From: Fibrobacteria bacterium
GTDB lineage: Bacteria > Fibrobacterota > Fibrobacteria > UBA11236
Assembly (NCBI GenBank): GCA_041483475.1
Contig: JBGPFT010000001.1
Coordinates: 1-35,026 of the forward strand
Reading direction: 5' to 3'
Length of the DNA stretch: 35,026 nucleotides
Position numbers and translations under genes: made by a program. The notes below the pieces were generated by a model, which did not search any database, was not told where the DNA came from, and was given only the letters and a program-made list of their open reading frames with translations. Positions 12,424-25,993 of the stretch are shown one piece after another. Every line of letters begins with the position of its first letter. Position 1 is the first letter of the stretch.

Positions 12424-14208
12424 TCAGGGCAGGTTGACCGCGCGCCTGAGGCGCGTCCCGTCTCCCACGGCCTCCACCACGGCGAACCTCCCGCGCACGC
12501 CGGACAGGGAAAACGAATGCAGGCTCGGGCCAAAGCCCGAGGAGGTGGCCAGCACGGAGCCGCGCAAGTCGAGCAGCTTGATTTCATGCGATCCGCGGAA
12601 GGGGGAGCGGACGATCAGATTGTTCCCCTCCACCGACCATTGCAGGCGATTCAGCAGCGCGGCGTGGGCGAGTTTCGGATCCACCACCGGGACCGCGGAA
12701 CAAGCGGCGCCGCTTCCCATGGCGTTGTTGGCGTAAACGGTTTCCCGGGTCCAAAGCACGGAGTTATCGGCGGCCTGGAAGGTGGCGAAACCGGGCACTC
12801 GCAAATAATAGATGCGGCCCGCCGTGAAATTCGCGACGGGAAGAAAAACCCGGCGGTTGTCGGAACAAACCTGAATAGCGCCCACGGCATCGGTGCGAAC
12901 CCCTGTCGGATCATTAGCGTAATTGATGGTGGACGTGACGATCATGCTTTGCACGCTATAGTTTGCCGCTACTGACGCTGTGGCGCCTATCGGCTTATTG
13001 AACTCGATTTCCAGGCCGCCCGGCCGAGAGCGAACGGCCAGCATCTCGTAGGCGTTGGTGGTTCCATTGTACCGCAGCTTCTGCAGGCCGAAGGCCTGGG
13101 GGCCCCAGTTCCAATCGCCGTTGTCGGCGAGGCCGCCGGCATACAGCATGCCATCGGGGCCCCAGGCCAAACGGAACATCCCGACTTCGAGCCCGCCCGT
13201 GAATTGGAATACGGCGCCCTGATATTCGTTGTTCACCTTTTCCAGGAAATACCTCTGGATGCCGCCGTAATGCACATCGCCCATGAGCATTTGCCCGGCA
13301 TAAGGGCCGGTGGTGACGTACAAGGGATTACTGACCGCTGCGGCCATGCCATACGTAAGCTCTTCATCGGGCATATACACGGCCGGGGGGCTTTCCGGTT
13401 GGCTTTCGAAGGGGGGGACAGTGAGTCCCGCATAGGCGGCGTCCGGGGTATGGTGGAAGCCGTAGAAATGGCCTTGCTGCACATGGATGAGCTTGTTGGT
13501 GGGCACCCAGTTTCCCGCCACGTCGCCGGAGAAAAGATCGCCGTTGGGGCCGAAGCCGAGGCCGGTGGGTTCGCGCAATCCGCTGGCGATCACCGAGAAC
13601 GCCCCGGTGGTCGGATTCACCGACATCGACGTTCCGCGGTTGGGGCTTCTGATCAAATCCGCCGGGGTGAGATCCAATTTGGTCGAGGAAACGTTCATGT
13701 AGAAGGTACCGCTGCGCTGTGTCAGCCCGAAGGTGAATTCATGGCGCTGATGGATGCCGATCCCGGGCGTGTAAGGAACGGAGCATATGATCCGTGTGCC
13801 ATCGGAAATCCCGTCGCCGTTGGCGTCGAGCAATTGGACCACCTTGTTTCCACCGCTGACATAGATCTGGTCGCTGACCACGGCCAGCCCCATGAGGTCC
13901 TCGATTCCGGTGGCGAAGGTGCGCACCGTGGGCGAAGGCGCATTGCCGGTGACGCCGCTCAGTATGTACACGATGCTGTTGACCTGGGCCAAGGCCACAT
14001 TGTCGTGGATGCCGCCCCAATGACCCACCACGAGATCCCCGTTGGAGAGGAAATCCAATCCCGATACCCGGGGTTGAAATCCGGCGGCGGCGCCGACGCG
14101 CAAATTGATGCGGGTCCAATCGGGATGTACGGTGGTAAGCGGGGTGGTGCCGGCGAAGCCGCCGACGCAGAAAACGAGGATGAATTTGGAAACGGCTGAC
14201 TTGTGCAT
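12424..14208 (-). CDS. Secreted beta-propeller protein, paralog A of 10566-12398, with T9SS-type C-terminal domain
   Basis: 594 aa. Signal peptide MHKSAVSKFILVFCVGGFAG. Collinear with the 610-aa neighbour along its whole length and shares the same motif blocks and a near-identical tail (GRFAVVEAVGDGTRLRRAVNLP). Confidence 0.65.
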   Translation of the reverse strand: MHKSAVSKFILVFCVGGFAGTTPLTTVHPDWTRINLRVGAAAGFQPRVSGLDFLSNGDLVVGHWGGIHDNVALAQVNSIVYILSGVTGNAPSPTVRTFATGIEDLMGLAVVSDQIYVSGGNKVVQLLDANGDGISDGTRIICSVPYTPGIGIHQRHEFTFGLTQRSGTFYMNVSSTKLDLTPADLIRSPNRGTSMSVNPTTGAFSVIASGLREPTGLGFGPNGDLFSGDVAGNWVPTNKLIHVQQGHFYGFHHTPDAAYAGLTVPPFESQPESPPAVYMPDEELTYGMAAAVSNPLYVTTGPYAGQMLMGDVHYGGIQRYFLEKVNNEYQGAVFQFTGGLEVGMFRLAWGPDGMLYAGGLADNGDWNWGPQAFGLQKLRYNGTTNAYEMLAVRSRPGGLEIEFNKPIGATASVAANYSVQSMIVTSTINYANDPTGVRTDAVGAIQVCSDNRRVFLPVANFTAGRIYYLRVPGFATFQAADNSVLWTRETVYANNAMGSGAACSAVPVVDPKLAHAALLNRLQWSVEGNNLIVRSPFRGSHEIKLLDLRGSVLATSSGFGPSLHSFSLSGVRGRFAVVEAVGDGTRLRRAVNLP

Positions 14209-14393
14209 TTTGGTCCTTTATGCGGCCATGGAAATCACGGCACGCCCGCCAAAACGGCGCTTCCCCTAATATAACGCCGGCCTTCCCGCAGCCGGGCAGG
14301 CATTCGGGAAATTCGCATAGCCATGCGGAATGGCTAAAAAAAGGTGCGGCGGCGACACAAACTTCGCGGATTTTGCGCCCGAAACGGTATAAT

Positions 14394-14410
14394 CCGGGTC
14401 AATAACCCGG
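14394..14410 (-). terminator. Weak hairpin downstream of the Mla-operon barrel gene (CCGGGT-5 nt-ACCCGG); possible terminator
   Basis: A 6-bp GC-rich stem located 31 nt after the stop at 14441. On the minus strand it is followed by ATTATACCGTTT, which is a poor U-tract. Confidence 0.3.
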
Positions 14411-14440
14411 GATAAAAACGGAAAACCGCGCTTTTGATCA

Positions 14441-16084
14441 TCAATAGTTGAAACTCAGGCGCAGCGACAGGCTGTGCTTGCGGGGGTAGCGGTTGGCCAC
14501 CTGATCGAGACGCTCGCTGATCTGGAAGAGGTATCCGAGTTCCACGTTGCGGGAGAGGAAAAGGCGGAAATCCGCCTCCGATTCCTGCAACTGGATTTTT
14601 TCGGGTTGCGCGTTTTCGGCGAAGATCTCCGCGCGGAGATCCAAGGTGAAGCGGGTGGACAAGCGCAATTTGCCGGTGAGGATGCCTTCCACGCCCACGC
14701 TGTAGCTGGAAACGGATTTCTCGAAGGTGTTGGAGGTGCGTGCCACGTAATCGCCCATCGAAATTTGCTGATGCGCGGCCAGGCCCAACTGGGTCGAAAG
14801 TTCCAATTCGTACCGCGTCAACAATTCCAGATTCACGCCCGCGCCTTCGGCCAGGGAAACGGGAAAGAAGGAGGGTTTGACGCGGAAGGATCCGGAGGTG
14901 TCGAGGGTGCTGTCGACGCGCGTCGCGCTGGAGGTATCGACATAAGTCCGGACCCGGTACACGGTATCCAATGTCACCTTGTTGGGGAAGAGATGAGTGG
15001 AAGCCTGACCCCGGACATAGGGTCCCACCCACGCGTTCAAGCGCCGGACCCAGGTGGAGCGCAATTGCGCGTCGTCGAGAGAGATGTTGATGGGCTTTCC
15101 CTTGTCCTTGAGGAATCCGTCCTGGAGGAAGAACTCGTTGATTCCGAAAAAACTCGGCCGGTCGTAACGGGCCCGGGTGCGCAGGTCGGTGGACAACAGA
15201 ACGTTTTCCTGGTGCAGGGCGGTTTCGTCCACCTCCTGGGTCAGCCCCAGGTTGCCTCCTGCGCGCAGGCCGTAGGTCCAATGCCGCCCCACCCGCGTGC
15301 GGGTGTTGAGGGATTTGGCGCCTCCGGCGATGAGGTTGCCATCGACCTCCTTGTCGAAGACGAGTTCGACGGAATGCAATTCTCCGGAGTTGATCTGCAC
15401 GGTGATGTAATTCCTCAGCGAGTTGTAGCTCTCGCCCACCTTGGAAAGCCGGTAAAGTCCGGGCGGCAACACCCATACCTTGATATCCTGGAGGCGCTCG
15501 TCCTTGAAACCGGCGCCGCGGCCGTAATTGACCCAACGCTCCATCCGCAGCAGTTCGTATTGGCCGTCGATATAGGCTCCGGCATCGAGGAGGGTTTCCA
15601 CCAACAAAGCGCCCCAGGTCGGAGCCACGACGGTGGTATGCCCTTCCTCCACGCGCGCGGAGGCGCGCAGGCGCCGCTCGGTGACTCCGGATCCGAATTG
15701 AAGTTCGTAGGTGCCCGAATCCAGGAGGATGCGATGTCCGGTTTGCCCTACCGCGGCCAGTCGTCCAGAACGGCTGTACACCGCCACCTCGGGTTCGCGC
15801 CGGGGTTCGCTGAAGCAGGGGACGAACACCGCTCCCTTGCCCAAGGTGAGCAAGGTGCCGTCGCGGTTCATTTGTTCTTCTACCGCCGGGGCCGCCCAGT
15901 TCATACCCCTTCCCGAGTCCGGCGGTTGGGCCCGAGGTTGGGGCGGGGGAGCCGCCGTGCGAGGTTGGGAAACCACTTCTTCTCCGGGCAATCCCTCGGG
16001 CAGGCTGGCAAAGATCGGGGAAAGGAAAAACAGAACGGCGAAAAAGGCCCTCACCCGACGGACTGGAGGGTGAGGTGAGGACAT
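14441..16084 (-). CDS. Outer-membrane beta-barrel protein of unknown function with N-terminal beta-sandwich-like modules (DUF3078-like barrel)
   Basis: 547 aa. Signal peptide (RVRAFFAVLFFLSPIFA) followed by a Pro-rich linker. The C-terminal ~300 aa show an alternating amphipathic strand pattern. It ends in the OMP beta-signal-like LSLRLSFNY. The start is 1 nt after the PqiC-like stop. Confidence 0.6.
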   Translation of the reverse strand: MSSPHPPVRRVRAFFAVLFFLSPIFASLPEGLPGEEVVSQPRTAAPPPQPRAQPPDSGRGMNWAAPAVEEQMNRDGTLLTLGKGAVFVPCFSEPRREPEVAVYSRSGRLAAVGQTGHRILLDSGTYELQFGSGVTERRLRASARVEEGHTTVVAPTWGALLVETLLDAGAYIDGQYELLRMERWVNYGRGAGFKDERLQDIKVWVLPPGLYRLSKVGESYNSLRNYITVQINSGELHSVELVFDKEVDGNLIAGGAKSLNTRTRVGRHWTYGLRAGGNLGLTQEVDETALHQENVLLSTDLRTRARYDRPSFFGINEFFLQDGFLKDKGKPINISLDDAQLRSTWVRRLNAWVGPYVRGQASTHLFPNKVTLDTVYRVRTYVDTSSATRVDSTLDTSGSFRVKPSFFPVSLAEGAGVNLELLTRYELELSTQLGLAAHQQISMGDYVARTSNTFEKSVSSYSVGVEGILTGKLRLSTRFTLDLRAEIFAENAQPEKIQLQESEADFRLFLSRNVELGYLFQISERLDQVANRYPRKHSLSLRLSFNY

Positions 16085-16085
16085 A

Positions 16086-16718
16086 TCACTTCCCGGGCGC
16101 GGCGCGGAACTTGGCCTCGTCGAGAGCGACTTCCAAATCCTGGCTTAGCCGTTCATGCGCGGTTTCGAGCAAGGCGGAAAGCTCGCGCACCACGTAAACG
16201 GGTTCCTGCTGCGACACGGTTTTGCGCAGGTCGTAAAGTTTTTTCCAGAGCACCTGGCCGTTTTTCTCCTCGATGAGCTGGTATTCCAACGCCAGATGGG
16301 CGTACCAGGTTCCGCCCGGCCCGTCGTATTCCTCGATGGCCTGCACGTCGCAGGTGAGCTGGAAATCCGGGGCGAAGGAATCCGTCGAGCGGATCACGTT
16401 GTCGAACAGGCGCGCGGCGCGGAGATGCTTGAGCAGGAGATCGCCGATCATGCGATCGGGATCCACCGACCAGAGATGGTAGGAATAGAACTGGATTTGG
16501 TAGGCGCTTTGGCGGTACACGATCTGGCTGCGCCGGTAGGTTTCGGCGATGGTGGGTTCCCGCAGCCGGAGGACGAAGGGATAGGGCCCTTTTTGCAGCC
16601 GCTCCGGCGGGGGCGTAGGCTGGTAATCGAGCATGTAATACTTGGTTTCGGGGACCTTCCCGAAAAAGCACGCGGAGAGGACGCCGCCGCCCAGGACGGC
16701 CAGGACCCGGCGTTTCAT
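16086..16718 (-). CDS. ABC-type transport auxiliary lipoprotein (PqiC / ABC_trans_aux family)
   Basis: 210 aa. Lipobox VLSAC. Family pattern: KYYMLDY...PFVLRLREPTIAETYRRSQIVYR...YHLWSVDPDRMIGDLLLKHL. Its ATG overlaps the mlaD stop (ATGA). Confidence 0.8.
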   Translation of the reverse strand: MKRRVLAVLGGGVLSACFFGKVPETKYYMLDYQPTPPPERLQKGPYPFVLRLREPTIAETYRRSQIVYRQSAYQIQFYSYHLWSVDPDRMIGDLLLKHLRAARLFDNVIRSTDSFAPDFQLTCDVQAIEEYDGPGGTWYAHLALEYQLIEEKNGQVLWKKLYDLRKTVSQQEPVYVVRELSALLETAHERLSQDLEVALDEAKFRAAPGK

Positions 16719-17599
16719 TGGCGGCGCTCCTGCTTGTCCTCGCCGCGCAACAGCACGGCGGGGTTGTCCTTGATCTGGCGGCTGAAGGTGTTCATGTTCT
16801 TCATGGCCTCCTTGAGGTTCGCCAGGGCGACGGCCAATTCCTCCTGCGCGCGCTTGGCCGTGGCGTCCATGGTGGTCGCCACCTTTTGCATATCCTGGGC
16901 CGCGACGCGGTATTCCTTCAGCGTGCCTTCCACATCGGCCTTCCGGGCTTGTTCGCGCATGGCGTCCACGGCCGCTTCCACGCTTCCGAGTATGCGGTCC
17001 ACGCGCTTGCCGGGGCGGACGCTTTGCACGTCGCGCACCAAGGAATCCATCGCGATCGAAAGCGCCGCCGAGGATTGCATGAGCCGGTCGAGGCTTTTGC
17101 GGTTCTGGGCTTCGGTGATGGAGATGGCGTTCCCGAGCAGGCGATCCACCTTGATGGCGATGGAGTCGGCCCGCAAGGTGATGCGGCCCAGCATGGAGAG
17201 GCCGGCTCTAACTTCGCCGCCCGGAGACACATCCGGCGATCCGTAGCTGCCGCCGGTGATCTCCAAGTATTTGAGGCCGGTGATGCCGTAGCTGCCCAAG
17301 GTGGCCACCATGTCGGTTTTCATGGGCGTGCCGCGCGCAACCTTGAAATGGACGATGGATTTACGGATGTCCCCACTGTCGGTGGAGATGGCGGCGACTT
17401 GTCCGATGTCGACGCCGTTCTGCTTCACGGGCGTTCCGGGCTCGAGCCCGGTCACCGATTCTTCCAGGCGCGCGAAATAGGCGTCGGTTTTCGCGGTAAG
17501 CTTGCGACCCACTAGGTAAATCAGCGAGGCTGCCAGGGCTGCTCCGGTGATCAAGAGGAACATGCCCAGTCGGGTTTTTTCGGCGCGGGTGGCTTCCAT
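16715..17599 (-). CDS. mlaD: MlaD-family MCE-domain protein with long C-terminal helical extension
   Basis: 294 aa. N-terminal TM anchor, then an MCE domain (GLEPGTPVKQNGVDIGQVAAI...GITGLKYLEITGG), then a Q/A/K/E-rich predicted helical tail of more than 100 aa. Confidence 0.85.
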   Translation of the reverse strand: MEATRAEKTRLGMFLLITGAALAASLIYLVGRKLTAKTDAYFARLEESVTGLEPGTPVKQNGVDIGQVAAISTDSGDIRKSIVHFKVARGTPMKTDMVATLGSYGITGLKYLEITGGSYGSPDVSPGGEVRAGLSMLGRITLRADSIAIKVDRLLGNAISITEAQNRKSLDRLMQSSAALSIAMDSLVRDVQSVRPGKRVDRILGSVEAAVDAMREQARKADVEGTLKEYRVAAQDMQKVATTMDATAKRAQEELAVALANLKEAMKNMNTFSRQIKDNPAVLLRGEDKQERRQ

Positions 17600-18391
17600 T
17601 CACTGCTCGAAATGAAAGGCCATGGCGGCCGTTTCCCCGTAACGCTCGTCGGGTCTTCGCGCCAGGAAATCCCGCACTTCCTGCGGACCGGCGGATTCGG
17701 CCTCTGCCAAGGTCCCGTCGAAAACCACCTTGCCGCCGGAGAGGAAGGTGACGCGATCGGCCAAGGCGCGTATGGAATCGAGTTCGTGGGTGACCACCAC
17801 CATGGTGATGTCCAAAGTCTTGCGCAGTTCCAACAGCAAATCGTCGAGTCCGCGCGAGGTGACCGGGTCCAGCCCTGCGGAGGGTTCGTCGCAGAACAAC
17901 AGTTCGGGATCGGCGGCCAAGGCCCGCGCCAAACCGGCGCGCTTGCGCATACCGCCCGAAAGCTCGCCGGGGAATTTTTCCTCGGCGCCTTCCAGGCGTA
18001 CTTGTCCCAGTTTCAGGCGCACCAATTCGCGCAGCACCCCGCCGGGAATTTCCGGGTGCCGGATGCGCAGCGGCAAAGCCACGTTTTCGGCCACGGTCAG
18101 GGAGGAAAGCAAAGCCCCTCCCTGGAACAGGACTCCGATTTTCCCGAACACATCATCGGCGGGCCGGCCCTCCGACCAATCCAGTTTTTGCCCGAGCAAT
18201 TCCACCGTGCCTTCCCAAGGTCGTTCCAGTCCGGCGGCGTTTTTGAGCAAAGTGGACTTGCCGCAACCCGATCCGCCCAGCACCACCCGGATCTCACCCT
18301 TATTCACTTCCAGGTCCACGCCGTCGAGTACGGGAAATCCGTCGTATCCGGCCTTGAGGCCTTGTACGCGCAATGCCGGGGTGTCGTTCAT
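17600..18391 (-). CDS. mlaF: MlaF-like ABC transporter ATP-binding protein
   Basis: 263 aa. Walker A GGSGCGKST, ABC signature LSGGMRKR, Walker B LLFCDEPSAGLD. It directly abuts the mlaD start. Confidence 0.9.
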   Translation of the reverse strand: MNDTPALRVQGLKAGYDGFPVLDGVDLEVNKGEIRVVLGGSGCGKSTLLKNAAGLERPWEGTVELLGQKLDWSEGRPADDVFGKIGVLFQGGALLSSLTVAENVALPLRIRHPEIPGGVLRELVRLKLGQVRLEGAEEKFPGELSGGMRKRAGLARALAADPELLFCDEPSAGLDPVTSRGLDDLLLELRKTLDITMVVVTHELDSIRALADRVTFLSGGKVVFDGTLAEAESAGPQEVRDFLARRPDERYGETAAMAFHFEQ

Positions 18392-18397
18392 GGCCGG

Positions 18398-19465
18398 TTA
18401 AAGGTAGAACAGGAAGGAAAACACCGCGTCGGCGAGGATGATGGCGAAAATGCAATGCACCACGCAGGCCGTGACGACGCGGCCCACGGCGTCGGCGCCT
18501 CCGCGTACGCCCAGGCCCTTGGTGACGGCGATGAAGACGATAATCCAGGAAAAGGTCAGCGATTTCACCGCTGCCTGCCAGACATAGGTGAAAGGCAGGG
18601 ACTGGCGCAATTCCCCCAGGAAACTGGCGGCGGAAAGCTTGAAGAACAGCATGCCCACCAACATGCCGGTGGCGATTCCGGCCAGGCAGGAAGCTGCGGT
18701 GAGCAGGGGTTGGGTGATGCTCATGGCCCAAAAGCGCGGCAGTGCGAGGAAATGAAGAGGGTTGATCGCCAGGGAGCGCAAGGCCGCCACTTCCTCCTGC
18801 ACCGTCATGGCGGCGATTTCCGCGGTGATGGCGCTGCCGGAGCGGCCCGCGAGGATGACGGCGGTCATCACGGGGCCTATTTCCGTGACCATGCTGACAC
18901 CGATGCCGTCGGCCAGGAACAATGCGGCCCCGTATTTCTGCAATTGCAATCCGGATTGCAACGCCAAGGTGAATCCGATCAGGATGGAAAGCAGGAGGAC
19001 GATGGGCATGGCGCTGCTGCCGAGGCGGATCATTTGCATCGCCGTCGTTCCGCGCAAAAGGGTTTTCGGCCGATGCAGGCCCAGCGTGGAATGGAACAGC
19101 GCTTCGGACAGCATCAGTCCGAGACTGAGGATTTCCCGCCCTGCCGAAAGGGCCGCTTCCCCTGCCCGCTCGGCCAGAGAGGGTTCGCGGCTTCGCTCCG
19201 AAACTCCGGAGCCGGGCGTGCGGATCCCGCGCAGGGCTTCGCGCAACTCGGGTTTGAGGCCGCGCAAGGTCAAGCTCCGACCCCGCCGATCGGCTTCGGC
19301 CTGCAGATGGGAAAGGAAGGCCAGCGCCAGGGAATCCAGCCGACGGAGGCGGGCGCAGTCCAGCTCCAAATCGCCGGCCCCCAGGGTAGCTTGCGCGGTA
19401 CGGGTGGCCCGGGCCGTGAAATCCGGGGACAAAGTTTCCGGCAATGACAACGGGCCGTCGGACAT
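18398..19465 (-). CDS. mlaE: MlaE-family ABC permease with fused N-terminal STAS (MlaB-like) domain
   Basis: 355 aa. The first ~100 aa (LELDCARLRRLDSLALAFLSHLQAEADRRGRSLTLRGLKPELREAL) are STAS-like. The remainder is a multi-TM MlaE-type permease. Confidence 0.85.
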   Translation of the reverse strand: MSDGPLSLPETLSPDFTARATRTAQATLGAGDLELDCARLRRLDSLALAFLSHLQAEADRRGRSLTLRGLKPELREALRGIRTPGSGVSERSREPSLAERAGEAALSAGREILSLGLMLSEALFHSTLGLHRPKTLLRGTTAMQMIRLGSSAMPIVLLLSILIGFTLALQSGLQLQKYGAALFLADGIGVSMVTEIGPVMTAVILAGRSGSAITAEIAAMTVQEEVAALRSLAINPLHFLALPRFWAMSITQPLLTAASCLAGIATGMLVGMLFFKLSAASFLGELRQSLPFTYVWQAAVKSLTFSWIIVFIAVTKGLGVRGGADAVGRVVTACVVHCIFAIILADAVFSFLFYL

Positions 19466-19500
19466 GGGAATAAAATGCCTTTTCTAGATTCTGTTCACGC

Positions 19501-20943
19501 ATGCTTCCCCGAATTCCCATCCCTTTTGGAGGCGTCGCCGCTTTCGCCTTGATCATGGCCGGAGCCGGGGAATCCACGCATTCACTTCCCACGATCCCCT
19601 TGAACTGCGCTGCGGTGGAAAGCCTGGCCCTGGAACGCCATCCCATGCTCGCGGAGAAGGCGTTGGAGGTGGACAAGTCGCGGGAGAAATTGCGCGACCT
19701 CGACATGGGAGCCATACTTCCCAAATTTGAAGTGCAAACCGGCATGGGTCCGGCCCCGGGAATTCGTGAAATACCGGACACGTCGCTGTTCTACGTGAAC
19801 GGCCTGGGGCAGCCCATTCCTCGCAGTGTGAAGGAATTCGATTACACCGATTGGGGTCCCTTTTTCGGCATCGAAGCCACCTTGGTCCAGCCCTTGAACG
19901 TAGGACGCTTTCGCGCCGGCAGGCGGGCGGCCAAATTGCAAATCGAGATTTCCTCCGCCGAATTTCAGAAGGAGAGGCTGGACGTGTCGGAAGAGGCGCA
20001 GACTTTGTATTACCAGCGCCTATACGCCCTGACCATGCGCCGGGTACTCGAGTCCGCGCGCCGCGATTTGGACAAAGCGCAAAAAAAACTGGCCGAGCAG
20101 CTCGACGAAGGGGATAAGGACGTTTCCCAAACCGATTTGTTGCAGATGAAGGCCGGCCGCTATGCCCTCGACCAGGGCTGGAACGAAGCCGTGCTGGGAA
20201 TTTCGCGCACCGACCTGGGCCTGCGATTTTTGCTGGGTTGGGCGGATTCCTCGTCCCCGGCGCTGGCGGATACGCTGTTGTCCCAGCGGGCGGAGGCGAT
20301 GCCTTCGCTCGATTCGCTCAAGGTGTTCACCTTGCGCGATCATCCCGATCTGGCCAGATTGCGCAACGGTCTGGCGGCGCGCAGGGAATTGCTCAAGGTG
20401 GCGCAGGGGGAACTGGGCCCGGACATTTTTCTTTTCGGCAGTTTCAAGTACACCAAGGCCTGGTCCTCGGATCGGCAATCCGGGGGACGCGATCCCTTCG
20501 CACGCGATCCCTTGAACGAGTTGACGGGCGTGGCTGGACTGGGCATGCGCTTGCAGCTCAATTTCTGGCAGCGCTATCAGAAATACCGCAAGGAGAGGCT
20601 GGAGTTGCGCCAATTGGAGCGCACCGAGGTCTATGCCGCCCGGGGACTTTTGCTCAAAACCGAGGATGCCTATGTCCGATGGGTGAAGTCCAAGTCGGAC
20701 GCGGAAGAGGCGCAAAAGGCCCTGCGCGCGGCCGAGGCTTGGCTGAAGGGCGTGGCCATGAAATACGATCTGGATCCTTCCATCGGCAAGGATCTGATCG
20801 CTCCATTCAAGCAGTCGTTGACGGCCAAGCGCGACTATTACCAGGCCGTGTTGGAATACGACCTGTCGGTGGCCCGCTTGTTCAAGGCGGTGGGTTGGAC
20901 GATGCCCGACCATCTTCGTAGCTTGGTCGGTGGAAAGGGATGA
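19501..20943 (+). CDS. TolC-family outer membrane protein (OEP repeats)
   Basis: 480 aa with a signal peptide. Typical OEP opening: LNCAAVESLALERHPMLAEKALEVDKSREKLRDLDMGAILPKFEV. Two helical repeat halves. Divergent from mlaE across only 35 bp. Confidence 0.8.
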   Translation: MLPRIPIPFGGVAAFALIMAGAGESTHSLPTIPLNCAAVESLALERHPMLAEKALEVDKSREKLRDLDMGAILPKFEVQTGMGPAPGIREIPDTSLFYVNGLGQPIPRSVKEFDYTDWGPFFGIEATLVQPLNVGRFRAGRRAAKLQIEISSAEFQKERLDVSEEAQTLYYQRLYALTMRRVLESARRDLDKAQKKLAEQLDEGDKDVSQTDLLQMKAGRYALDQGWNEAVLGISRTDLGLRFLLGWADSSSPALADTLLSQRAEAMPSLDSLKVFTLRDHPDLARLRNGLAARRELLKVAQGELGPDIFLFGSFKYTKAWSSDRQSGGRDPFARDPLNELTGVAGLGMRLQLNFWQRYQKYRKERLELRQLERTEVYAARGLLLKTEDAYVRWVKSKSDAEEAQKALRAAEAWLKGVAMKYDLDPSIGKDLIAPFKQSLTAKRDYYQAVLEYDLSVARLFKAVGWTMPDHLRSLVGGKG

Positions 20944-21635
20944 CGAAAATGCGCGCGTGGAAGCAGGTATTGGCGGCGGCGGTCGGGGCGGTCCTCGTGG
21001 CCGTCCCGATCGCCGCGGCGGATTCGGCAAAAGCCGCCATCCCCGATCCGGTCGAAGTGATCCGGACCAAGGACGCCGAGCTGCAAAAGCTTTTGCGCGA
21101 CAAGGAAAAGAAAACCGATCGCATCAAGGCGCTGATCAACGGCATTTTCGACTTCGAAGAGCTCGGGCGGCGCGCCCTGGGACCCGCCCAATGGGGCAAG
21201 ATGGCCGCGGCCCAGCAAGTCCGTTTCGTGAAAGCCTTTCGGGAGATGGTGGAGAACTCCTCGGTCAAGAAACTCGAGGCCTATGTCAGCGATTCGACCC
21301 GTTATGACAAGCCGGAGGGAAGCGAGGAAAAAACCAATGTCACCGCCCATGTTTTCTCCAAGGGAACGGAATCGGTGGTCACCTACAAGCTGCTTCTGAA
21401 ACAGGGGGTTTGGAGGGCCTGGGATCTTGTGATCGACGATCTCAGCACGGCGGGAAATTACGGCGACCAGTTCCGGAAAATCCTGGAAAAAAACACCCTT
21501 GATGGTCTCATCGCCAAGCTGGAAAAGAAGGCCAACAGCGGGACGACTTCCAAGACCGCCGACAACGTGAAAGCCAAATCCGAGAAGACGAGCAAAGCCT
21601 CGGTGGCGAAGAAAACCCCCTCCTCGGGATCCTGA
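20940..21635 (+). CDS. mlaC: MlaC / Ttg2D-family periplasmic phospholipid-binding protein
   Basis: 231 aa with a signal peptide. Motifs: FDFEELGRRALGPAQWGKM..QQVRFVKAF, VWRAWDLVIDDLSTAGNYGDQF. K/S/T-rich tail. Its ATG overlaps the TolC stop (ATGA). Confidence 0.85.
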   Translation: MTKMRAWKQVLAAAVGAVLVAVPIAAADSAKAAIPDPVEVIRTKDAELQKLLRDKEKKTDRIKALINGIFDFEELGRRALGPAQWGKMAAAQQVRFVKAFREMVENSSVKKLEAYVSDSTRYDKPEGSEEKTNVTAHVFSKGTESVVTYKLLLKQGVWRAWDLVIDDLSTAGNYGDQFRKILEKNTLDGLIAKLEKKANSGTTSKTADNVKAKSEKTSKASVAKKTPSSGS

Positions 21636-21650
21636 ACGTTCCCCGATCCC

Positions 21651-22247
21651 ATGCCGTTCTGGGCGATCGTCCTTGCGTTCGCGGCCATTCCCGCCGTTTT
21701 CTTTTTTCTCTTCCGCCTGCGCTACCGCTTCGACTGGGCGGGCGGAAAAACCTGGTCGGCCGCGCTCGAATACGGCCTGCCCGGATTCATGCGCACGCGC
21801 CGCTTTTCCTCCGCCCCGGCACCGGGCCAAGCCGGTTTTATCGACCTGCCGTCTTTTTTTCGCCTGGATCCCAAGCGGCTGCGACGCGCGCTATTCCGCA
21901 TGGCTATGGACGTTTCCCTGCTCCGGGCGTTGGCCCGCTTCGCTGTTCGGGGATCAGGAGCGACATTCCGACTCCTGGATTTTCGGATGCGCTGCGCGGT
22001 GAGCCATCCCGATCCCGCCTTACTGGGGCGTTTCGTCGGGTATTATCACGCGGCGCTGGTTCTTCCCGGCGCGCGCCGAATCGACCTGCGCTTCCGGTTC
22101 CAGGACCGGCATGTCGCCGCGGCCGTGAGCGCATGGGGCGGTTTTTCCGCCGCGCGCTTCCTGATCTTCCTCCTCGGGGCGATGGCTGCCTTTCCCTGGC
22201 GGCCGCTGCTTCGCAGCGTCTGGCGCGGTTGGCCAAGGGATAGTTAA
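21651..22247 (+). CDS. Hypothetical membrane protein (N- and C-terminal hydrophobic segments, Arg-rich core)
   Basis: 198 aa, starting 16 nt after the mlaC stop. N-terminal TM segment WAIVLAFAAIPAVFFFLF and C-terminal hydrophobic segment FLIFLLGAMAAF. No family confidently recognised, with only a loose resemblance to DUF2953. Confidence 0.5.
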   Translation: MPFWAIVLAFAAIPAVFFFLFRLRYRFDWAGGKTWSAALEYGLPGFMRTRRFSSAPAPGQAGFIDLPSFFRLDPKRLRRALFRMAMDVSLLRALARFAVRGSGATFRLLDFRMRCAVSHPDPALLGRFVGYYHAALVLPGARRIDLRFRFQDRHVAAAVSAWGGFSAARFLIFLLGAMAAFPWRPLLRSVWRGWPRDS

Positions 22248-22258
22248 ATTCCCGCCCG

Positions 22259-22690
22259 ATGAGTTTCCTGGAAAAAGAGGACGCGAAACCCTCGACGTTT
22301 TGGGATTGGGTGATCGGCGTAGCCTTATTGTGCCTGGTCGGCGGCTTCACCTACTTCTATCAATATCAGAAGCGTTATTCCCGGCAGAAATTCCAGGCGG
22401 CCGATTCGCTGTTCCAGGCGGGCAAATTTCCGGAGGCGGAGCGGGCCTACGAGGAGCTCAAGGGTGCCCAGTACCTGACCACATCCCATGACAGCCTGAT
22501 TTACGCCCGGCTGGATTCGGTGTCATCCATGGAGGACGGGGAAAAGGAAACCCTGGCCCGTGCGCGCGCCAAGCTGGCTGCCGGGGACACGACCGGCGCC
22601 CGGGCCGAAATCAAAGCGCGCATCTTCCGCGGCCTGCTGCGGGACGAGGATCAGGCTGCGCTGGATTCGATCAAGGTGATTTTGCGCTGA
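22259..22690 (+). CDS. Hypothetical single-pass membrane protein with TPR-like helical ectodomain
   Basis: 143 aa. TM segment WVIGVALLCLVGGFTYF, followed by ADSLFQAGKFPEAERAYEEL (TPR-like). It starts 11 nt after the preceding stop. Confidence 0.5.
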   Translation: MSFLEKEDAKPSTFWDWVIGVALLCLVGGFTYFYQYQKRYSRQKFQAADSLFQAGKFPEAERAYEELKGAQYLTTSHDSLIYARLDSVSSMEDGEKETLARARAKLAAGDTTGARAEIKARIFRGLLRDEDQAALDSIKVILR

Positions 22691-22692
22691 TC

Positions 22693-22734
22693 CGCTCACC
22701 TCGATATGGCCCTGTCGGGCCTACTCGGTGAGCG
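22693..22734. terminator. Two-tier hairpin between convergent genes (outer CGCTCACC/GGTGAGCG, inner GGCCC-TGTC-GGGCC)
   Basis: Read directly. The outer 8-bp stem is at 22693-22700 and 22727-22734, and the inner 5-bp stem is at 22708-22721. It spans the 30-bp gap between the 143-aa gene stop and the tsaE stop. No U-tract. Confidence 0.3.
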
Positions 22735-23140
22735 TGCTTCCTTGTATTTGAATTTGCCGTTCGGATTCCCCGGTCGGTTTCAGCTCGATTCGGTGGGTAA
22801 AATTTTGCCTTTCGGGCGGCAGCCGCTCAGGCCATTCGATCAGGCAAATCCCCTCGCCGTGGAGATAGTGATCGAGGCCGATTTCCTCCCAATCCGCGTT
22901 GGGAGCCAAGCGGTAAAGGTCCAGGTGATAAACGGGAATGCGCGCCGCGTACTCGTGAACCAGCGCGTAGGTGGGCGAAGCGATGTCGCCCGTATACCCC
23001 AGCGCACGCGCGACGCCCCGGGAGAAAAGCGTTTTGCCCGCCCCCAAAGGGCCTTGCAGCGCCACCACGTCGCCGGGTTTTAAGGAGGCGGCGAAACGGG
23101 CGGCGATGGAGAGGGTCTCAGTCTCGGAATGGGAGATCAC
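22721..23140 (-). CDS. tsaE: tRNA t6A37 threonylcarbamoyltransferase complex ATPase TsaE
   Basis: 139 aa from a GTG at 23140 that overlaps the porX stop (GTGA). Walker A GPLGAGKT. Family blocks SPTYALVHEY, YHLDLYRL, IEWPE. The 541-aa track ORF is an artefactual upstream extension. Confidence 0.85.
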   Translation of the reverse strand: MISHSETETLSIAARFAASLKPGDVVALQGPLGAGKTLFSRGVARALGYTGDIASPTYALVHEYAARIPVYHLDLYRLAPNADWEEIGLDHYLHGEGICLIEWPERLPPERQNFTHRIELKPTGESERQIQIQGSTLTE

Positions 23141-24693
23141 CTGGGATGCAGCGTCGCCAGCGGCACCAGCATCTCCTCCAGGGAGAGCCCGCCGCTGACC
23201 AATTGCTCCTTGAACTGGGTCACGAAGTACTGAAACTTGTTCGGATAGACGAAATAGAGGTTTTCCTTGGCGATGGCGTAGGTGATGCCGGTTTCCCCCG
23301 GCAGCCCGTATTGGGCGGGGGCCTCGACGAACAAAGCGTGGCGCTCGTCGCAGGAAATACCGGTGCCGATTTTGACGCGCGGGTGCGGAGATTGTTCCTC
23401 CTGGCAGAAGACCTCCGCGGGGGTGTCGACGCGCACGGCCCCGTGATCGCTGGTCAAGACCACGGTGCGTTTTCGCTCCGCCAGCGCCTTCAAGGCCTCG
23501 AAGAGCCGGGAGGAACGGAACCAGTTCAGGGTCAATTCCCGCAAGCCTTTTTCGTCGGGCACGATTTCCAGGAGCAATCCCCCTTGCGCGGACCGGAGGG
23601 CGTTCAGCATCTCCAGGAACTCCACCACCACCACGAGCAGGGGAGCGTCGCCGTGCCGGTCCAGCTCCGCGCCCAGGAGTTCGCTGTCTTCGTAGGTCCT
23701 GAGGTGGATCAGGCGCGGCTCCCCGACGTCGAGTCCGTTCATGCGGAGTTGCATCTTGAGCAGTTCGCGCTCGCAGGCGATTTCGTCCCCGCCCTCCCGC
23801 AGCCGTTTCCACAGTTCCGGTTGGTTCAGGCTCACATCGCGGGGCAACTGGCCGGAGAACAGGGCCGCGCGGCCAATGGTCTTTTCGGTGGGGAGCAGGG
23901 CCCAGGCCATTCCGTTTTCCACCCGGAAATGGGGCTCCAGCAGTTTTTGCAGCAGCAGCCATTGGTCGAGGCGGAATCCGGCCAACACCACCAGCGCGCA
24001 GGCTTCCCCCTTCTTGAGCAGGGGGAAAACCCGGCGGCGCAGCGTCTGGGTATGCAGATTGGGATTCCCGCCTTTTTTGCTCACCCAATGGATGTAATTC
24101 TCCTCCACGAAGGAGACGAACCGCTTCGAAAGCTCGCGCTTGTTGCCGCGGTGGGTTTCCTCCAAGCCGGGATCGGAAAGGTTCTGGAACTCCACGTCCC
24201 ATTTGCAGAGCTGGAAATGGATTTTCTCCCATTTGGAGTGAGTGGGGTTGGCGAGCAACCCGGCTTTGAGCTCGGCATGTTCCCGCACGTAGGCGGAAGT
24301 GACATGACTGTTGCGGATGGCGCTTGAGTGCAGGATTCTTTTGCAAGTCGAGAGCACCTGGGACGGGTTCACCGGCTTGATCAGGTAGCTGCTGATGTTG
24401 CGCCCGAAGGCCGCCTCCATGAGGCGCTCTTCCTCGATTTTGGTCACCATCACCACCGGGAGTTGGGCGTCCATGGCCCGGATCTCTTCCAAAGTGGTAA
24501 GCCCGTCCTTGCCGGGCATTTGCTCGTCGAGCAAAACGAGATCGTAAGGGCGGGATCGAATCAAGGCCAGGCCGTCGTCGCCGTTGGTAGCTTTCTCCAC
24601 CACATAACCGTGCTCCTCGAGAAACAGGATATGGGCGCGGAGGAATTCAATCTCGTCGTCCACCCACAGGAGGCGCTTGGGAGCGACATTCAT
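23137..24693 (-). CDS. porX: PorX-like response regulator: CheY receiver fused to a PglZ / alkaline-phosphatase-superfamily domain
   Basis: 518 aa. Receiver: LLWVDDE...DLVLLDEQMPGKDG...YLIKP. PglZ hallmarks: LLPTEKTIGRAALFSG and VVLTSDHGAV. The architecture and length match the T9SS regulator PorX. Confidence 0.85.
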   Translation of the reverse strand: MNVAPKRLLWVDDEIEFLRAHILFLEEHGYVVEKATNGDDGLALIRSRPYDLVLLDEQMPGKDGLTTLEEIRAMDAQLPVVMVTKIEEERLMEAAFGRNISSYLIKPVNPSQVLSTCKRILHSSAIRNSHVTSAYVREHAELKAGLLANPTHSKWEKIHFQLCKWDVEFQNLSDPGLEETHRGNKRELSKRFVSFVEENYIHWVSKKGGNPNLHTQTLRRRVFPLLKKGEACALVVLAGFRLDQWLLLQKLLEPHFRVENGMAWALLPTEKTIGRAALFSGQLPRDVSLNQPELWKRLREGGDEIACERELLKMQLRMNGLDVGEPRLIHLRTYEDSELLGAELDRHGDAPLLVVVVEFLEMLNALRSAQGGLLLEIVPDEKGLRELTLNWFRSSRLFEALKALAERKRTVVLTSDHGAVRVDTPAEVFCQEEQSPHPRVKIGTGISCDERHALFVEAPAQYGLPGETGITYAIAKENLYFVYPNKFQYFVTQFKEQLVSGGLSLEEMLVPLATLHPR

Positions 24694-25991: not shown

Positions 25992-25993
25992 TC

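What the first reader, a model, noticed from the sequence alone, without database searches (positions are those of the whole stretch)
14441..22690. Hybrid Mla/Pqi-type MCE lipid-transport locus with TolC-family duct, PqiC-like lipoprotein and orphan beta-barrel, but no MlaA
Two divergent, tightly coupled operons are separated by only 35 bp. The minus arm encodes STAS-MlaE, MlaF, a 294-aa MlaD, an ABC_trans_aux (PqiC-like) lipoprotein and a 547-aa beta-barrel. The plus arm encodes a TolC-family OMP, MlaC and two small membrane proteins. In the E. coli paradigm, MlaFEDB, MlaC and MlaA-OmpC/F form a shuttle system, while PqiABC and LetAB form bridges, and TolC partners with efflux or T1SS pumps rather than MCE systems. 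This locus combines a shuttle protein (MlaC), a bridge-type accessory lipoprotein (PqiC-like) and two different OM beta-barrels. No MlaA/VacJ-like gene is present in the window. That suggests a trans-envelope lipid or hydrophobic-molecule transporter of an architecture I do not recognise as characterised.
Basis: partly seen in the sequence, partly recalled or inferred. Interest (0 to 1): 0.7.

Follow-up and report, generated by a model that had tools for sequence, protein, structure and literature searches.

The report
MCE lipid transporter with dedicated outer-membrane barrel
This Fibrobacterota locus encodes a known kind of envelope-spanning lipid transporter (Mla-type pump, needle-shaped MCE protein, PqiC-like lipoprotein), plus an undescribed outer-membrane barrel protein that other bacteria fuse to the PqiC-like lipoprotein, which makes the barrel a candidate for the outer-membrane partner that has not yet been identified for such systems.

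Summary
All nine genes, their tight junctions and the 35-bp divergent gap are real, and every proposed Pfam assignment holds.

The "hybrid Mla/Pqi" core is not a new architecture. STAS-MlaE, MlaF, a 294-aa needle-type MlaD and the PqiC-like lipoprotein are a homologue of P. aeruginosa PA3211-PA3214 (PDB 13hr, 2026) and of the Brucella "Mla-Pqi chimeric" Mpc system (2025).

The new part is the 547-aa "orphan" protein. It has a signal peptide, two Ig-like beta-sandwiches and a barrel of about 14 strands.
- It follows pqiC directly in 45 of 45 assessable Fibrobacterota genomes.
- Its family has 529 representative clusters, and every context examined lies in an MCE operon.
- In 31 of the 147 best clusters it is fused to an N-terminal PqiC-like lipoprotein domain, for example in a Desulfobacterales MAG.
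- I found no paper that describes it. The 2026 PA3214 paper states that the OM partner is unknown.

The TolC-like/MlaC/two-small-protein arm is conserved next to the MCE arm only within one Fibrobacteria clade (22 of 23). It is absent from L036, from termite-gut Fibrimonadales and from all six non-Fibrobacterota contexts. Its membership in the same machine is unproven.

No MlaA was found in the window, and published data list none in cultured Fibrobacterota.

Verdict: a new variant of a known kind; interest 0.6.

The parts
18398..19465 (-). STAS-MlaE fusion: an MlaB-like STAS domain at residues 6-79, and the MlaE permease at residues 143-351.
   Evidence: Pfam STAS_2 3e-13 and MlaE 4e-61. TIGR00056 1.5e-56. 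PDB MlaE chains 7ch8_G 4e-31 and 6xbd_G 2.5e-26. The same fusion is present in L051, L052, L053, L055 and L056.
17600..18391 (-). MlaF-type ABC ATPase.
   Evidence: Pfam ABC_tran 2e-27. The MlaF model PRK11831 is tied for best NCBIfam hit at 2e-45, below its cutoff. The gene is syntenic between mlaE and mlaD in 26 Fibrobacterota loci.
16715..17599 (-). Needle-type MlaD: an N-terminal TM helix, one MCE domain, a helical region of about 160 aa, and the C-terminal tail ...NPAVLLRGEDKQERRQ.
   Evidence: Pfam MlaD 2e-13. Full-length alignment to PA3213 (PDB 13hr_I, residues 4-290 against 3-307 of 312, E 5e-17). Sequence. Relatives carry a weak PF28544 Helical_needle hit.
16086..16718 (-). PqiC-like (ABC_trans_aux) outer-membrane lipoprotein, with lipobox LSA-C17.
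   Evidence: Pfam PF03886 1.5e-18. PDB 13hr_A (PA3214) 3e-4. Sequence. It lies directly upstream of the barrel gene in 45 of 45 loci.
14441..16084 (-). MCE-associated outer-membrane protein. In order: signal peptide, conserved DLPGEE motif, Pro-rich disordered linker (residues 26-59), two Ig-like beta-sandwich domains (about 80-260), a beta-barrel of about 14 strands (269-546), and a C-terminal ...LSFNY.
   Evidence: AF2 pLDDT 82; N-terminal domain model pLDDT 92. Foldseek returns only generic OM barrels and Ig/pilin-like sandwiches. The family has 529 representative clusters. Fusions to PqiC-like domains are shown. MCE operon contexts are shown.
19466..19500 (.). 35-bp divergent intergenic region between the two start codons.
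   Evidence: Sequence. The equivalent gap is 20-292 bp in 22 related loci. No sigma-70-like promoter was detected there and there is no Rfam hit.
19501..20943 (+). Deeply divergent TolC/OEP-family outer-membrane protein, with a signal peptide and no lipobox.
   Evidence: Pfam OEP 1e-31 with two repeats. TIGR01844 scores 40 bits against a cutoff of 225. There is no PDB hit by sequence, and the profile hits only CmeC at E 0.0045. It is divergent to STAS-mlaE in 22 of 23 assessable loci.
20940..21635 (+). Periplasmic MlaC-family lipid-binding protein, with a signal peptide and a Lys/Ser-rich C-terminal tail.
   Evidence: Pfam MlaC 4e-30. The best NCBIfam hit is HpnM at 59.6 bits, below its cutoff. 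PDB hits to Ttg2D/MlaC-like chains are at 1e-4. Sequence. It accompanies the TolC-like gene in 22 of 22 loci.
21651..22247 (+). Conserved membrane-anchored protein of unknown family. It has an N-terminal TM helix, a variable low-complexity insert in relatives, and a conserved C-terminal domain of about 130 aa (G-x-P/E-D-P..LGR, FPW).
   Evidence: No Pfam or NCBIfam hit. Alignment of 21 homologues from syntenic loci.
22259..22690 (+). Conserved small membrane-anchored protein: MSFLEKED..WDW, one TM helix, then a TPR-like helical hairpin.
   Evidence: Sub-threshold TPR_4 and TPR_14 hits. Alignment of 22 homologues, 36-66% identical by tblastn.

Best explanation
The minus arm encodes a five-component, envelope-spanning MCE ABC transporter of the PA3211-PA3214 / Mpc type. 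By homology to solved systems, a STAS-MlaE dimer with an MlaF dimer powers a hexamer of single-MCE MlaD. The long C-terminal helices of MlaD form a needle across the periplasm. The needle tip and its C-terminal peptides are captured by a ring of the PqiC-like lipoprotein under the outer membrane.

In this lineage, and in many other bacteria, the lipoprotein works with a dedicated outer-membrane protein made of two periplasmic Ig-like domains and a barrel of about 14 strands. This protein is encoded next to pqiC, or is fused to it. I infer that it binds the PqiC-like ring and anchors or opens the outer-membrane end of the bridge. It would thus replace MlaA-OmpC/F as the place where lipid (or another hydrophobic molecule) leaves or enters the outer membrane. 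By analogy with every characterised MlaE-type system (Mla, Mce1/4, TGD), the likely direction is toward the inner membrane.

The divergent TolC-like/MlaC/orf198/orf143 operon is a clade-specific neighbour. It is probably co-regulated and also concerned with envelope lipids, but it has not been shown to be part of the same complex.

Shown here: the homologies, the operon structure, the synteny, the gene fusions and the fold predictions. Inferred: the stoichiometry, the physical contact between the barrel and the PqiC-like lipoprotein, the substrate and the direction of transport.
For: MlaD aligns end to end with PA3213, and the lipoprotein aligns with PA3214 of the cryo-EM entry 13hr. The architecture of that system (hexameric needle, octameric lipoprotein ring, essential C-terminal peptide) is described in PMC13631591.

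The genes are translationally coupled, with overlaps or gaps of 0 to 6 bp.

The pqiC-barrel adjacency holds in 45 of 45 assessable Fibrobacterota species genomes, and mlaD is directly upstream in all 40 assessable, down to 32% barrel identity.

The barrel family has 529 representative clusters. Of the 147 best, 31 carry an N-terminal PF03886 lipoprotein domain fused to the same sandwich-and-barrel region, each with a lipobox.

Six non-Fibrobacterota contexts all place the barrel in an mlaE/mlaF operon, five of them next to MlaD and/or a PqiC-like gene or domain, with permuted gene order: L051 (Desulfobacterales), L052, L053, L054, L055 and L056.

The AF2 models are confident (pLDDT 82 and 92) and show periplasmic domains followed by a barrel.

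The authors of the PA3214 structure state that an unknown OM partner is one open possibility.
Against: No complex prediction or experiment links the barrel physically to the PqiC-like ring.

A 1:1 fusion implies up to eight barrels per octameric ring, an arrangement with no precedent.

A barrel of about 14 strands has a narrow lumen, and Foldseek gives only generic barrel matches (TM 0.2-0.6), so no transport mechanism can be read from the fold.

Pseudomonas, Xanthomonas and Brucella operons of this class are described with four genes and no barrel, so the barrel is not required for the class.

In Fibrimonadales, mlaD-pqiC-barrel lies apart from any mlaEF.

Substrate and direction are pure analogy.
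Confidence: 0.7

Rival explanations
1. All nine genes build one machine with two routes. A bridge runs from the MlaD needle to the PqiC-like ring and the barrel. A shuttle route uses MlaC, which docks on the TolC-like trimer in place of MlaA-OmpC/F. The two small membrane proteins act as adaptors.
For: The divergent tolC-mlaC-orf198-orf143 arm sits 20-292 bp from STAS-mlaE in 22 of 23 assessable Fibrobacteria genomes and in 7 of 7 TolC-anchored metagenome contigs of that clade, down to about 35% barrel identity. No MFP or RND pump gene lies next to the TolC-like gene in any locus scanned with Pfam. TolC also follows mlaEFD in all Negativicutes (PMC10665443). In some Fibrimonadales contigs an MlaF-like ATPase or a STAS-less MlaE lies near the TolC-like orthologue. 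Published data list no MlaA but one MlaC in Fibrobacter.
Against: The five-gene MCE module occurs without TolC or MlaC in L036, in 10 Fibrimonadales genomes and in six non-Fibrobacterota contexts. The TolC-like orthologue occurs without MlaC (0 of 39) or STAS-mlaE (0 of 34) in termite-gut contigs, where a small OMP_b-brl protein follows it instead. In the E. coli paradigm as summarised in PMC12436622 and PMC10665443, MlaC shuttles lipid to the inner-membrane MlaFEDB complex; I infer that a needle-type MlaD leaves no free MCE-ring face for it to dock on, and its roughly 170-Angstrom needle leaves no room for a TolC periplasmic tunnel in series.
Confidence: 0.2
2. The system is a nutrient or xenobiotic importer rather than an outer-membrane lipid-homeostasis device. 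The barrel would act as a FadL/TodX-like uptake channel for exogenous hydrophobic compounds, which pass to the needle and are imported by the ABC engine, as in mycobacterial Mce1/Mce4.
For: FadL and TodX are among the Foldseek barrel hits. Mycobacterial Mce systems with MlaE/MlaD-type parts are implicated in fatty-acid and cholesterol transport across the mycobacterial envelope (PMC9882608 abstract), and 8fed chains match MlaD and MlaE here. The window neighbours are catabolic or uptake genes: GSDH, BNR_4, MFS and a weak GH88 hit.
Against: TM-scores to FadL and TodX are low (about 0.22-0.25 relative to the query) and no better than to porins or autotransporter barrels. In other relatives the neighbourhood is envelope biogenesis: lpxC/fabZ/lpxA-like genes, glycosyltransferases and a CDP-alcohol phosphatidyltransferase. 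The catabolic neighbours are not conserved.
Confidence: 0.2
3. The 547-aa protein is an unrelated porin or adhesin-type OMP that merely shares a transcript with the MCE genes.
For: It has no Pfam, NCBIfam or PDB sequence match. Its N-terminal domains resemble pilin/adhesin Ig-like folds.
Against: The adjacency holds in 45 of 45 genomes. Gene fusions with PqiC-like domains recur in 31 representative clusters. The barrel co-occurs with MCE genes in every context examined, even where gene order is permuted.
Confidence: 0.04

Closest known systems
Pseudomonas aeruginosa PA3211-PA3214 (cryo-EM, PDB 13hr/13hq; PMC13631591), and the homologous Xanthomonas XCC0632 operon
   Same: It has an MlaE-type permease, an ABC ATPase, a single-MCE protein with a long helical needle and a C-terminal peptide, and a PqiC-like OM lipoprotein encoded last. 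The window's MlaD and lipoprotein match 13hr chains I and A over their full length.
   Different: It is described as a four-gene operon whose OM partner is unknown. Here a dedicated beta-sandwich-and-barrel OMP follows the lipoprotein gene, and the permease carries an N-terminal STAS domain. Whether PA3211 carries a STAS domain was not checked.
Brucella abortus MpcEFDA, the 'Mla-Pqi chimeric' system (PMC12436622)
   Same: It combines an Mla-type ABC engine, a needle-type MlaD and a PqiC-like lipoprotein, with no MlaA. It is proposed to bridge the inner and outer membranes.
   Different: Brucella has no MlaC. No barrel or TolC-like partner is reported for it.
E. coli MlaFEDB-MlaC-MlaA/OmpC
   Same: MlaE, MlaF, the MlaD MCE domain, the STAS partner and an MlaC-family protein are all present.
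   Different: MlaD here is 294 aa with a needle, not a short ring-only protein. The STAS domain is fused to MlaE. No MlaA is present. The OM end is a PqiC-like lipoprotein plus a barrel.
E. coli PqiABC
   Same: It has a PqiC-family lipoprotein that caps a helical MCE needle (PMC10897342, PMC13631591).
   Different: There is no PqiA here. The MCE protein has one MCE domain, not three. An ABC engine drives the system. The PqiC NCBIfam model scores 16.8 bits against a cutoff of 200.
Veillonella parvula / Negativicutes mlaEFD-tolC-tamB cluster, whose MlaD carries a barrel (PMC10665443)
   Same: It is an MlaEFD core without MlaA, with a barrel at the OM end of an MCE bridge and a TolC homologue encoded beside the mla genes.
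   Different: There the barrel is the C-terminus of MlaD itself, and there is no lipoprotein and no MlaC. Here the barrel is a separate protein, or is fused to PqiC. Homology between the two barrels was not tested.
PelC-PelB and LptE-LptD: lipoproteins with the PqiC-like alpha/beta fold that work with an OM beta-barrel (as summarised in PMC13631591)
   Same: A lipoprotein with a PqiC-like fold is paired with a beta-barrel to move a hydrophobic or polymeric substrate at the OM.
   Different: The barrels are unrelated and the substrates differ. LptE plugs a 26-strand barrel, which a barrel of about 14 strands could not accommodate.
Chloroplast TGD1/2/3 with the outer-envelope barrel TGD4 (from my own knowledge; PMC13631591 mentions 'porin-like beta-barrel' partners of MCE systems)
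   Same: An MlaE/MlaF/MlaD-type ABC system is partnered with a beta-barrel in the outer membrane.
   Different: TGD4 is a different barrel family, and no PqiC-like lipoprotein is involved.

Membership tests
PA3211-PA3214 / Mpc-type MCE ABC transporter | An MlaE-family permease and an ABC ATPase encoded together. | tested here: met
   MlaE 4e-61 and ABC_tran 2e-27, in adjacent genes.
PA3211-PA3214 / Mpc-type MCE ABC transporter | A single-MCE protein with a TM anchor, a long C-terminal helical needle and a C-terminal peptide. | tested here: met
   End-to-end alignment with PA3213 (13hr_I, residues 4-290 against 3-307 of 312, E 5e-17), including the conserved ..NPA..L.G..K tail.
PA3211-PA3214 / Mpc-type MCE ABC transporter | A PqiC-like (PF03886) OM lipoprotein encoded downstream of the MCE gene. 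| tested here: met
   PF03886 1.5e-18, lipobox LSAC, 4-bp overlap with mlaD, match to 13hr_A at 3e-4.
PA3211-PA3214 / Mpc-type MCE ABC transporter | A 2:2:6:8 complex that spans the periplasm. | not testable with these tools
   This needs multimer modelling or cryo-EM.
Canonical Mla pathway (MlaFEDB-MlaC-MlaA) | An MlaA/VacJ lipoprotein (PF04333). | tested here: not met
   No hit among the 29 main ORFs of the window. Published data list zero MlaA in Fibrobacter, Chitinivibrio and Chitinispirillum. The rest of this MAG could not be searched.
Canonical Mla pathway (MlaFEDB-MlaC-MlaA) | A short, ring-only MlaD (about 180 aa) and a separate MlaB. | tested here: not met
   MlaD is 294 aa with a helical extension. 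TIGR04430 scores 43 bits against a cutoff of 135. The STAS domain is fused to MlaE.
Canonical Mla pathway (MlaFEDB-MlaC-MlaA) | A periplasmic MlaC. | tested here: met
   PF05494 4e-30 and a signal peptide. The score is below the NCBIfam MlaC and HpnM cutoffs.
PqiABC | PqiA and a three-MCE PqiB. | tested here: not met
   There is one MCE domain only, and none of the main ORFs scanned across the window was identified as PqiA.
TolC/OEP outer-membrane factor | Two OEP repeats. | tested here: met
   PF02321 1e-31 with two stretches.
TolC/OEP outer-membrane factor | Membership of a curated TolC/NodT subfamily, and partnership with an MFP and an inner-membrane pump. | tested here: not met
   TIGR01844 scores 40 bits against 225, and TIGR01845 scores 17 against 210. 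The profile hits only CmeC at E 0.0045. No MFP or RND gene is adjacent in the window or in the Pfam-scanned relatives. A pump encoded elsewhere in the genome cannot be excluded.
MCE-associated PqiC-linked barrel family (proposed here) | Tandem beta-sandwich domains plus a barrel, encoded in an MCE operon or fused to a PF03886 domain. | tested here: met
   The window protein seeds the family: 529 clusters, 31 of the 147 best are fusions, and MCE genes are present in every context examined.
Veillonella-type barrel-bearing MlaD | A beta-barrel that forms the C-terminus of MlaD. | tested here: not met
   MlaD ends after the helical tail. Published data report no barrel in MlaD of the FCB group. 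Homology between that barrel and this one was not tested.

The most novel reading that the evidence does not exclude
The nine genes form a dual-route lipid machine in which a TolC-family trimer, not MlaA-porin, is the outer-membrane receptor for an MlaC shuttle. This route runs alongside a needle/PqiC-ring bridge crowned by dedicated barrels, and the two small membrane proteins couple the two routes. That would give TolC-family proteins a role in lipid trafficking, and it would also explain the mlaEFD-tolC linkage in Negativicutes.
Probability: 0.15. Interest if true: 0.85.

Novelty: new variant of a known kind. Interest (0 to 1): 0.6.

Why it matters
How MCE bridges (PqiABC, PA3211-14, Mpc, Let, Mce1) hand lipids to or from the outer membrane is an openly stated gap. 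The 2026 PA3214 structure paper lists "unknown OM binding partners" as one possibility.

The barrel family found here is genetically locked to PqiC-like lipoproteins. It is adjacent to pqiC in every assessable Fibrobacterota genome, and it is fused to a PqiC-like domain in Desulfobacterales and in many unassigned lineages.

This gives a concrete candidate that can be tested, with a natural 1:1 fusion suitable for structural work. It also shows that the five-component variant is widespread rather than a peculiarity of one MAG.

The TolC/MlaC neighbour adds a second lead, still weak, on TolC-family proteins in lipid transport.

Tried and rejected
- **Is the N-terminal region of the 547-aa protein itself PqiC-like?** Some sources name homologues "ABC-type ... 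auxiliary component". Rejected: there is no Pfam hit, the confident model is all-beta, and Foldseek finds only Ig/pilin-like sandwiches. The source names probably come from the fused relatives.
- **PDB searches.** Sequence and profile searches with the barrel family found nothing. The TolC-like protein found nothing by sequence and only CmeC (E 0.0045) by profile.
- **The OEP gene near mlaD in L037.** I tested it as an orthologue of the window's TolC-like protein. Rejected: 20% identity, and it does not hit the family HMM.
- **The 242-aa gene after the TolC-like orthologue in Fibrimonadales.** I tested it as a divergent MlaC or orf198. Rejected: no similarity, and only a weak OMP_b-brl hit.
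- **Homologue search with MlaC to find outgroup contexts.** It returned only close Fibrobacterota relatives and was not informative.
- **Promoter and terminator scan of 14000-23300.** Counts were at the level of shuffled sequence, and nothing lay in the 35-bp gap. Rfam found no match in the window.
- **Taxonomy of non-Fibrobacterota family members from cluster names.** Only one informative name emerged, Desulfobacterales.
- **Literature searches** for PqiC-barrel fusions, PF03886/DUF330 architectures and DUF3078 found no description of this family.
- **Multimer or fusion-protein structure prediction** could not be run.

Full report
**Observation.** The window is a 35-kb contig of about 61% GC from an uncultured Fibrobacterota bacterium (source names; composition). 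The nine ORFs lie exactly where the finding places them, and they are tightly packed. On the minus strand, STAS-mlaE, mlaF, mlaD, pqiC-like and the 547-aa gene are separated by 6, 0, -4 and 1 bp. On the plus strand, tolC-like, mlaC, orf198 and orf143 are separated by -4, 15 and 11 bp. The two arms start 35 bp apart.

Pfam confirms every proposed domain, with E-values from 1e-13 to 1e-61. NCBIfam places the proteins in the right superfamilies, but below every equivalog cutoff. The lipoprotein has a lipobox. MlaC and the TolC-like protein have signal peptides. No MlaA hit was found among the 29 main ORFs of the window. The plus arm ends at 22690, where a convergent tsaE begins.

**The core is a known class.** The 294-aa MlaD is not an E. 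coli-type ring protein. It aligns end to end with chain I of PDB 13hr (E 5e-17, residues 4-290 against 3-307 of 312), and the lipoprotein matches chain A of the same entry. Entry 13hr is the P. aeruginosa PA3213-PA3214 subcomplex. There, a hexameric single-MCE protein forms a needle of about 170 Angstroms. An octameric ring of a PqiC-like lipoprotein captures the needle tip and its C-terminal peptides, and an MlaE/MlaF-type engine (PA3211/PA3212) drives the system (PMC13631591). The STAS domain fused to MlaE is a regular feature of this variant in the relatives examined.

**The 547-aa protein.** AlphaFold2 with a 36-sequence alignment (pLDDT 82) predicts a signal peptide, a disordered Pro-rich linker (residues 26-59), a beta-rich region (83-257) and a barrel of about 14 strands (269-546) that ends in ...LSFNY. 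The N-terminal region modelled alone (pLDDT 92, pTM 0.86) is a tandem of Ig/transthyretin-like sandwiches with only generic Foldseek matches. The barrel likewise matches only generic OM barrels: autotransporter translocators, FapF, NanC, FadL and porins. No Pfam, NCBIfam or PDB sequence relative exists.

**Synteny within the phylum.** A scan of one genome per GTDB species found 48 loci, all Fibrobacterota. They are soil and freshwater Fibrobacteria MAGs, termite-gut Candidatus Fibrimonadales, and one MAG labelled Fibrobacter sp.. Family HMMs were run over all ORFs of these loci, with these results:
- pqiC-like lies directly upstream of the barrel gene in 45 of 45 assessable loci.
- mlaD lies upstream of pqiC in all 40 assessable loci. 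A strict automatic rule counts 38; the other two are ORF-boundary artefacts.
- STAS-mlaE/mlaF is present in 26 of 36 loci. All ten absences are of the Fibrimonadales type.
- The divergent tolC-like gene is present in 22 of 23 loci (absent in L036, where icd sits instead). mlaC follows tolC in 22 of 22.

The reverse test used 55 metagenome contigs anchored on the TolC-like protein. In the Fibrobacteria-type clade, MlaC was present in 8 of 8 and the divergent STAS-mlaE in 7 of 7. In about 40 termite-gut contigs neither was present. There the TolC-like orthologue is followed by a small OMP_b-brl protein, sometimes with an MlaF-like ATPase or a STAS-less MlaE nearby.

**The barrel family beyond the phylum.** A profile search of 1.84 billion representative proteins found 529 clusters (222 with E <= 1e-30). 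Many are about 520 aa long, and a distinct class is 690-810 aa long, with the match starting at residue 210-300. These long proteins carry an N-terminal PF03886 (PqiC-like) domain with a lipobox. This applies to 31 of the 147 best clusters. One of them is annotated as "PqiC" in a Desulfobacterales MAG.

Contexts outside Fibrobacterota:
- L051 and L052: STAS-MlaE, MlaF, MlaD, PqiC::barrel fusion.
- L055: the same five separate genes as in the window.
- L056: barrel first, then STAS-MlaE, MlaF, MlaD, PqiC-like.
- L053: a PqiC-like fragment, barrel, STAS-MlaE, MlaF.
- L054: MlaD, a small PqiC-like ORF, barrel, MlaE, MlaF.

None has TolC or MlaC nearby. Recurrent gene fusion, together with linkage that survives changes in gene order, is strong comparative evidence that the barrel protein and the PqiC-like lipoprotein act together.

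I found no paper that describes this. The PA3214 paper says it is unclear how translocation at the OM occurs. It names "unknown OM binding partners" as one possibility and draws the analogy to PelC-PelB and LptE-LptD, which are lipoproteins with the PqiC-like fold that work with barrels.

**Mechanism.** Shown: the homology of four components to a structurally characterised bridge, the operon coupling, and the genetic lock between the lipoprotein and the barrel. Inferred: MlaD forms a hexameric needle capped by a ring of the lipoprotein, and the barrel protein binds that ring through its periplasmic Ig-like domains. In the split Fibrobacterota form it may bind through its conserved DLPGEE N-terminus, which is missing from the fused relatives and from the ~520-aa family members of unassigned lineage. 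The barrel would anchor the tip in the OM and provide or gate the site where lipid enters or leaves it, taking the role that MlaA-OmpC/F plays in E. coli. The direction (toward the inner membrane) and the substrate (phospholipid or another hydrophobic molecule) rest only on analogy with Mla, Mce1/4 and TGD. A 1:1 fusion implies as many barrels as ring subunits, which is unusual and needs structural testing.

**The TolC-like/MlaC arm.** The OEP assignment is solid at Pfam level, but the protein is a very divergent branch. It scores below the TolC and NodT cutoffs, has no PDB hit by sequence, and hits CmeC at E 0.0045 by profile. Its linkage to the MCE arm is stable across one Fibrobacteria clade, and no efflux pump gene accompanies it. 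The MCE module and the TolC-like gene each occur without the other in sister lineages. A needle-type MlaD also offers neither an obvious docking face for MlaC nor room for a TolC tunnel in series. TolC next to mlaEFD was already noted in Negativicutes. I therefore treat this arm as a probably co-regulated envelope module whose membership in the machine is unproven, at a probability of about 0.2.

Published phylogenomic data list no MlaA in Fibrobacter, Chitinivibrio or Chitinispirillum, and a single MlaC in Fibrobacter.

**Verdict.** The locus is a new variant of a known kind: a PA3211-14/Mpc-type MCE bridge with a dedicated, previously undescribed OM barrel partner that is widespread and often fused to PqiC. 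Interest is 0.6. It is not categorically new, but it makes the open question of the OM end of MCE bridges directly testable.

Noticed in passing
window 22721-23130 (-), 23137-24693 (-), 24690-26231 (-): A tsaE gene (PF02367, E 1e-37) lies convergent to orf143, so the 125-aa ORF at 22706-23083 (+) is its shadow. Next come a response regulator with a PglZ domain and a histidine kinase. This trio stays syntenic with the plus arm even in the most distant Fibrobacteria loci (L002, L057), so it may regulate the locus.
   Followed up: partly
window 10566-12398 (-) and 12424-14208 (-): Two paralogous proteins of about 600 aa (one with a weak DUF7133 hit) follow the barrel gene after a 232-bp gap. An orthologue follows the barrel only in about 10 closely related loci, so they are not part of the conserved module.
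   Followed up: partly
P0510 (1109 aa; Logan assembly, same 90% cluster as P0480): This ORF reads as an MlaD::PqiC-like::barrel triple fusion (MlaD 4e-12 and ABC_trans_aux 2e-15 by Pfam; barrel by HMM). It could be a real three-way fusion or a frameshift or assembly artefact.
   Followed up: no
L078, L087, L088, L110, L044 (termite-gut Fibrimonadales contigs): In these contigs the TolC-like orthologue is followed, with an overlapping start, by a 242-aa protein with a weak OMP_b-brl hit instead of MlaC. Some contigs then carry an MlaF-like ATPase, or a STAS-less MlaE about 3 kb away. This is a second, different loose link between TolC-like and Mla genes.
   Followed up: partly
window 15907-16000 (-), residues about 28-60 of the 547-aa protein: An invariant L-P-G(-E-E) motif sits at the mature N-terminus, followed by a Pro-rich disordered linker. 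It is conserved in the split Fibrobacterota proteins. In PqiC-fused and ~520-aa family members of unassigned lineage the profile match starts only at about position 50. It may be a docking peptide that replaces the covalent link.
   Followed up: no
L002 and L057 (about 19-21.7 kb); L055 (13.8-16.9 kb): In distant relatives the module sits near envelope-biogenesis genes: lpxC, fabZ and lpxA/D-like hexapeptide transferases, GT1/GT9 glycosyltransferases and a CDP-alcohol phosphatidyltransferase. This fits an envelope-lipid role, but the neighbours are not conserved in the window.
   Followed up: no
window 19466-19500: The divergent start codons are only 35 bp apart (20-292 bp in relatives), and no sigma-70-like promoter was detected. 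The promoters must overlap the coding regions or follow a non-sigma-70 consensus, as in other members of the FCB group.
   Followed up: partly
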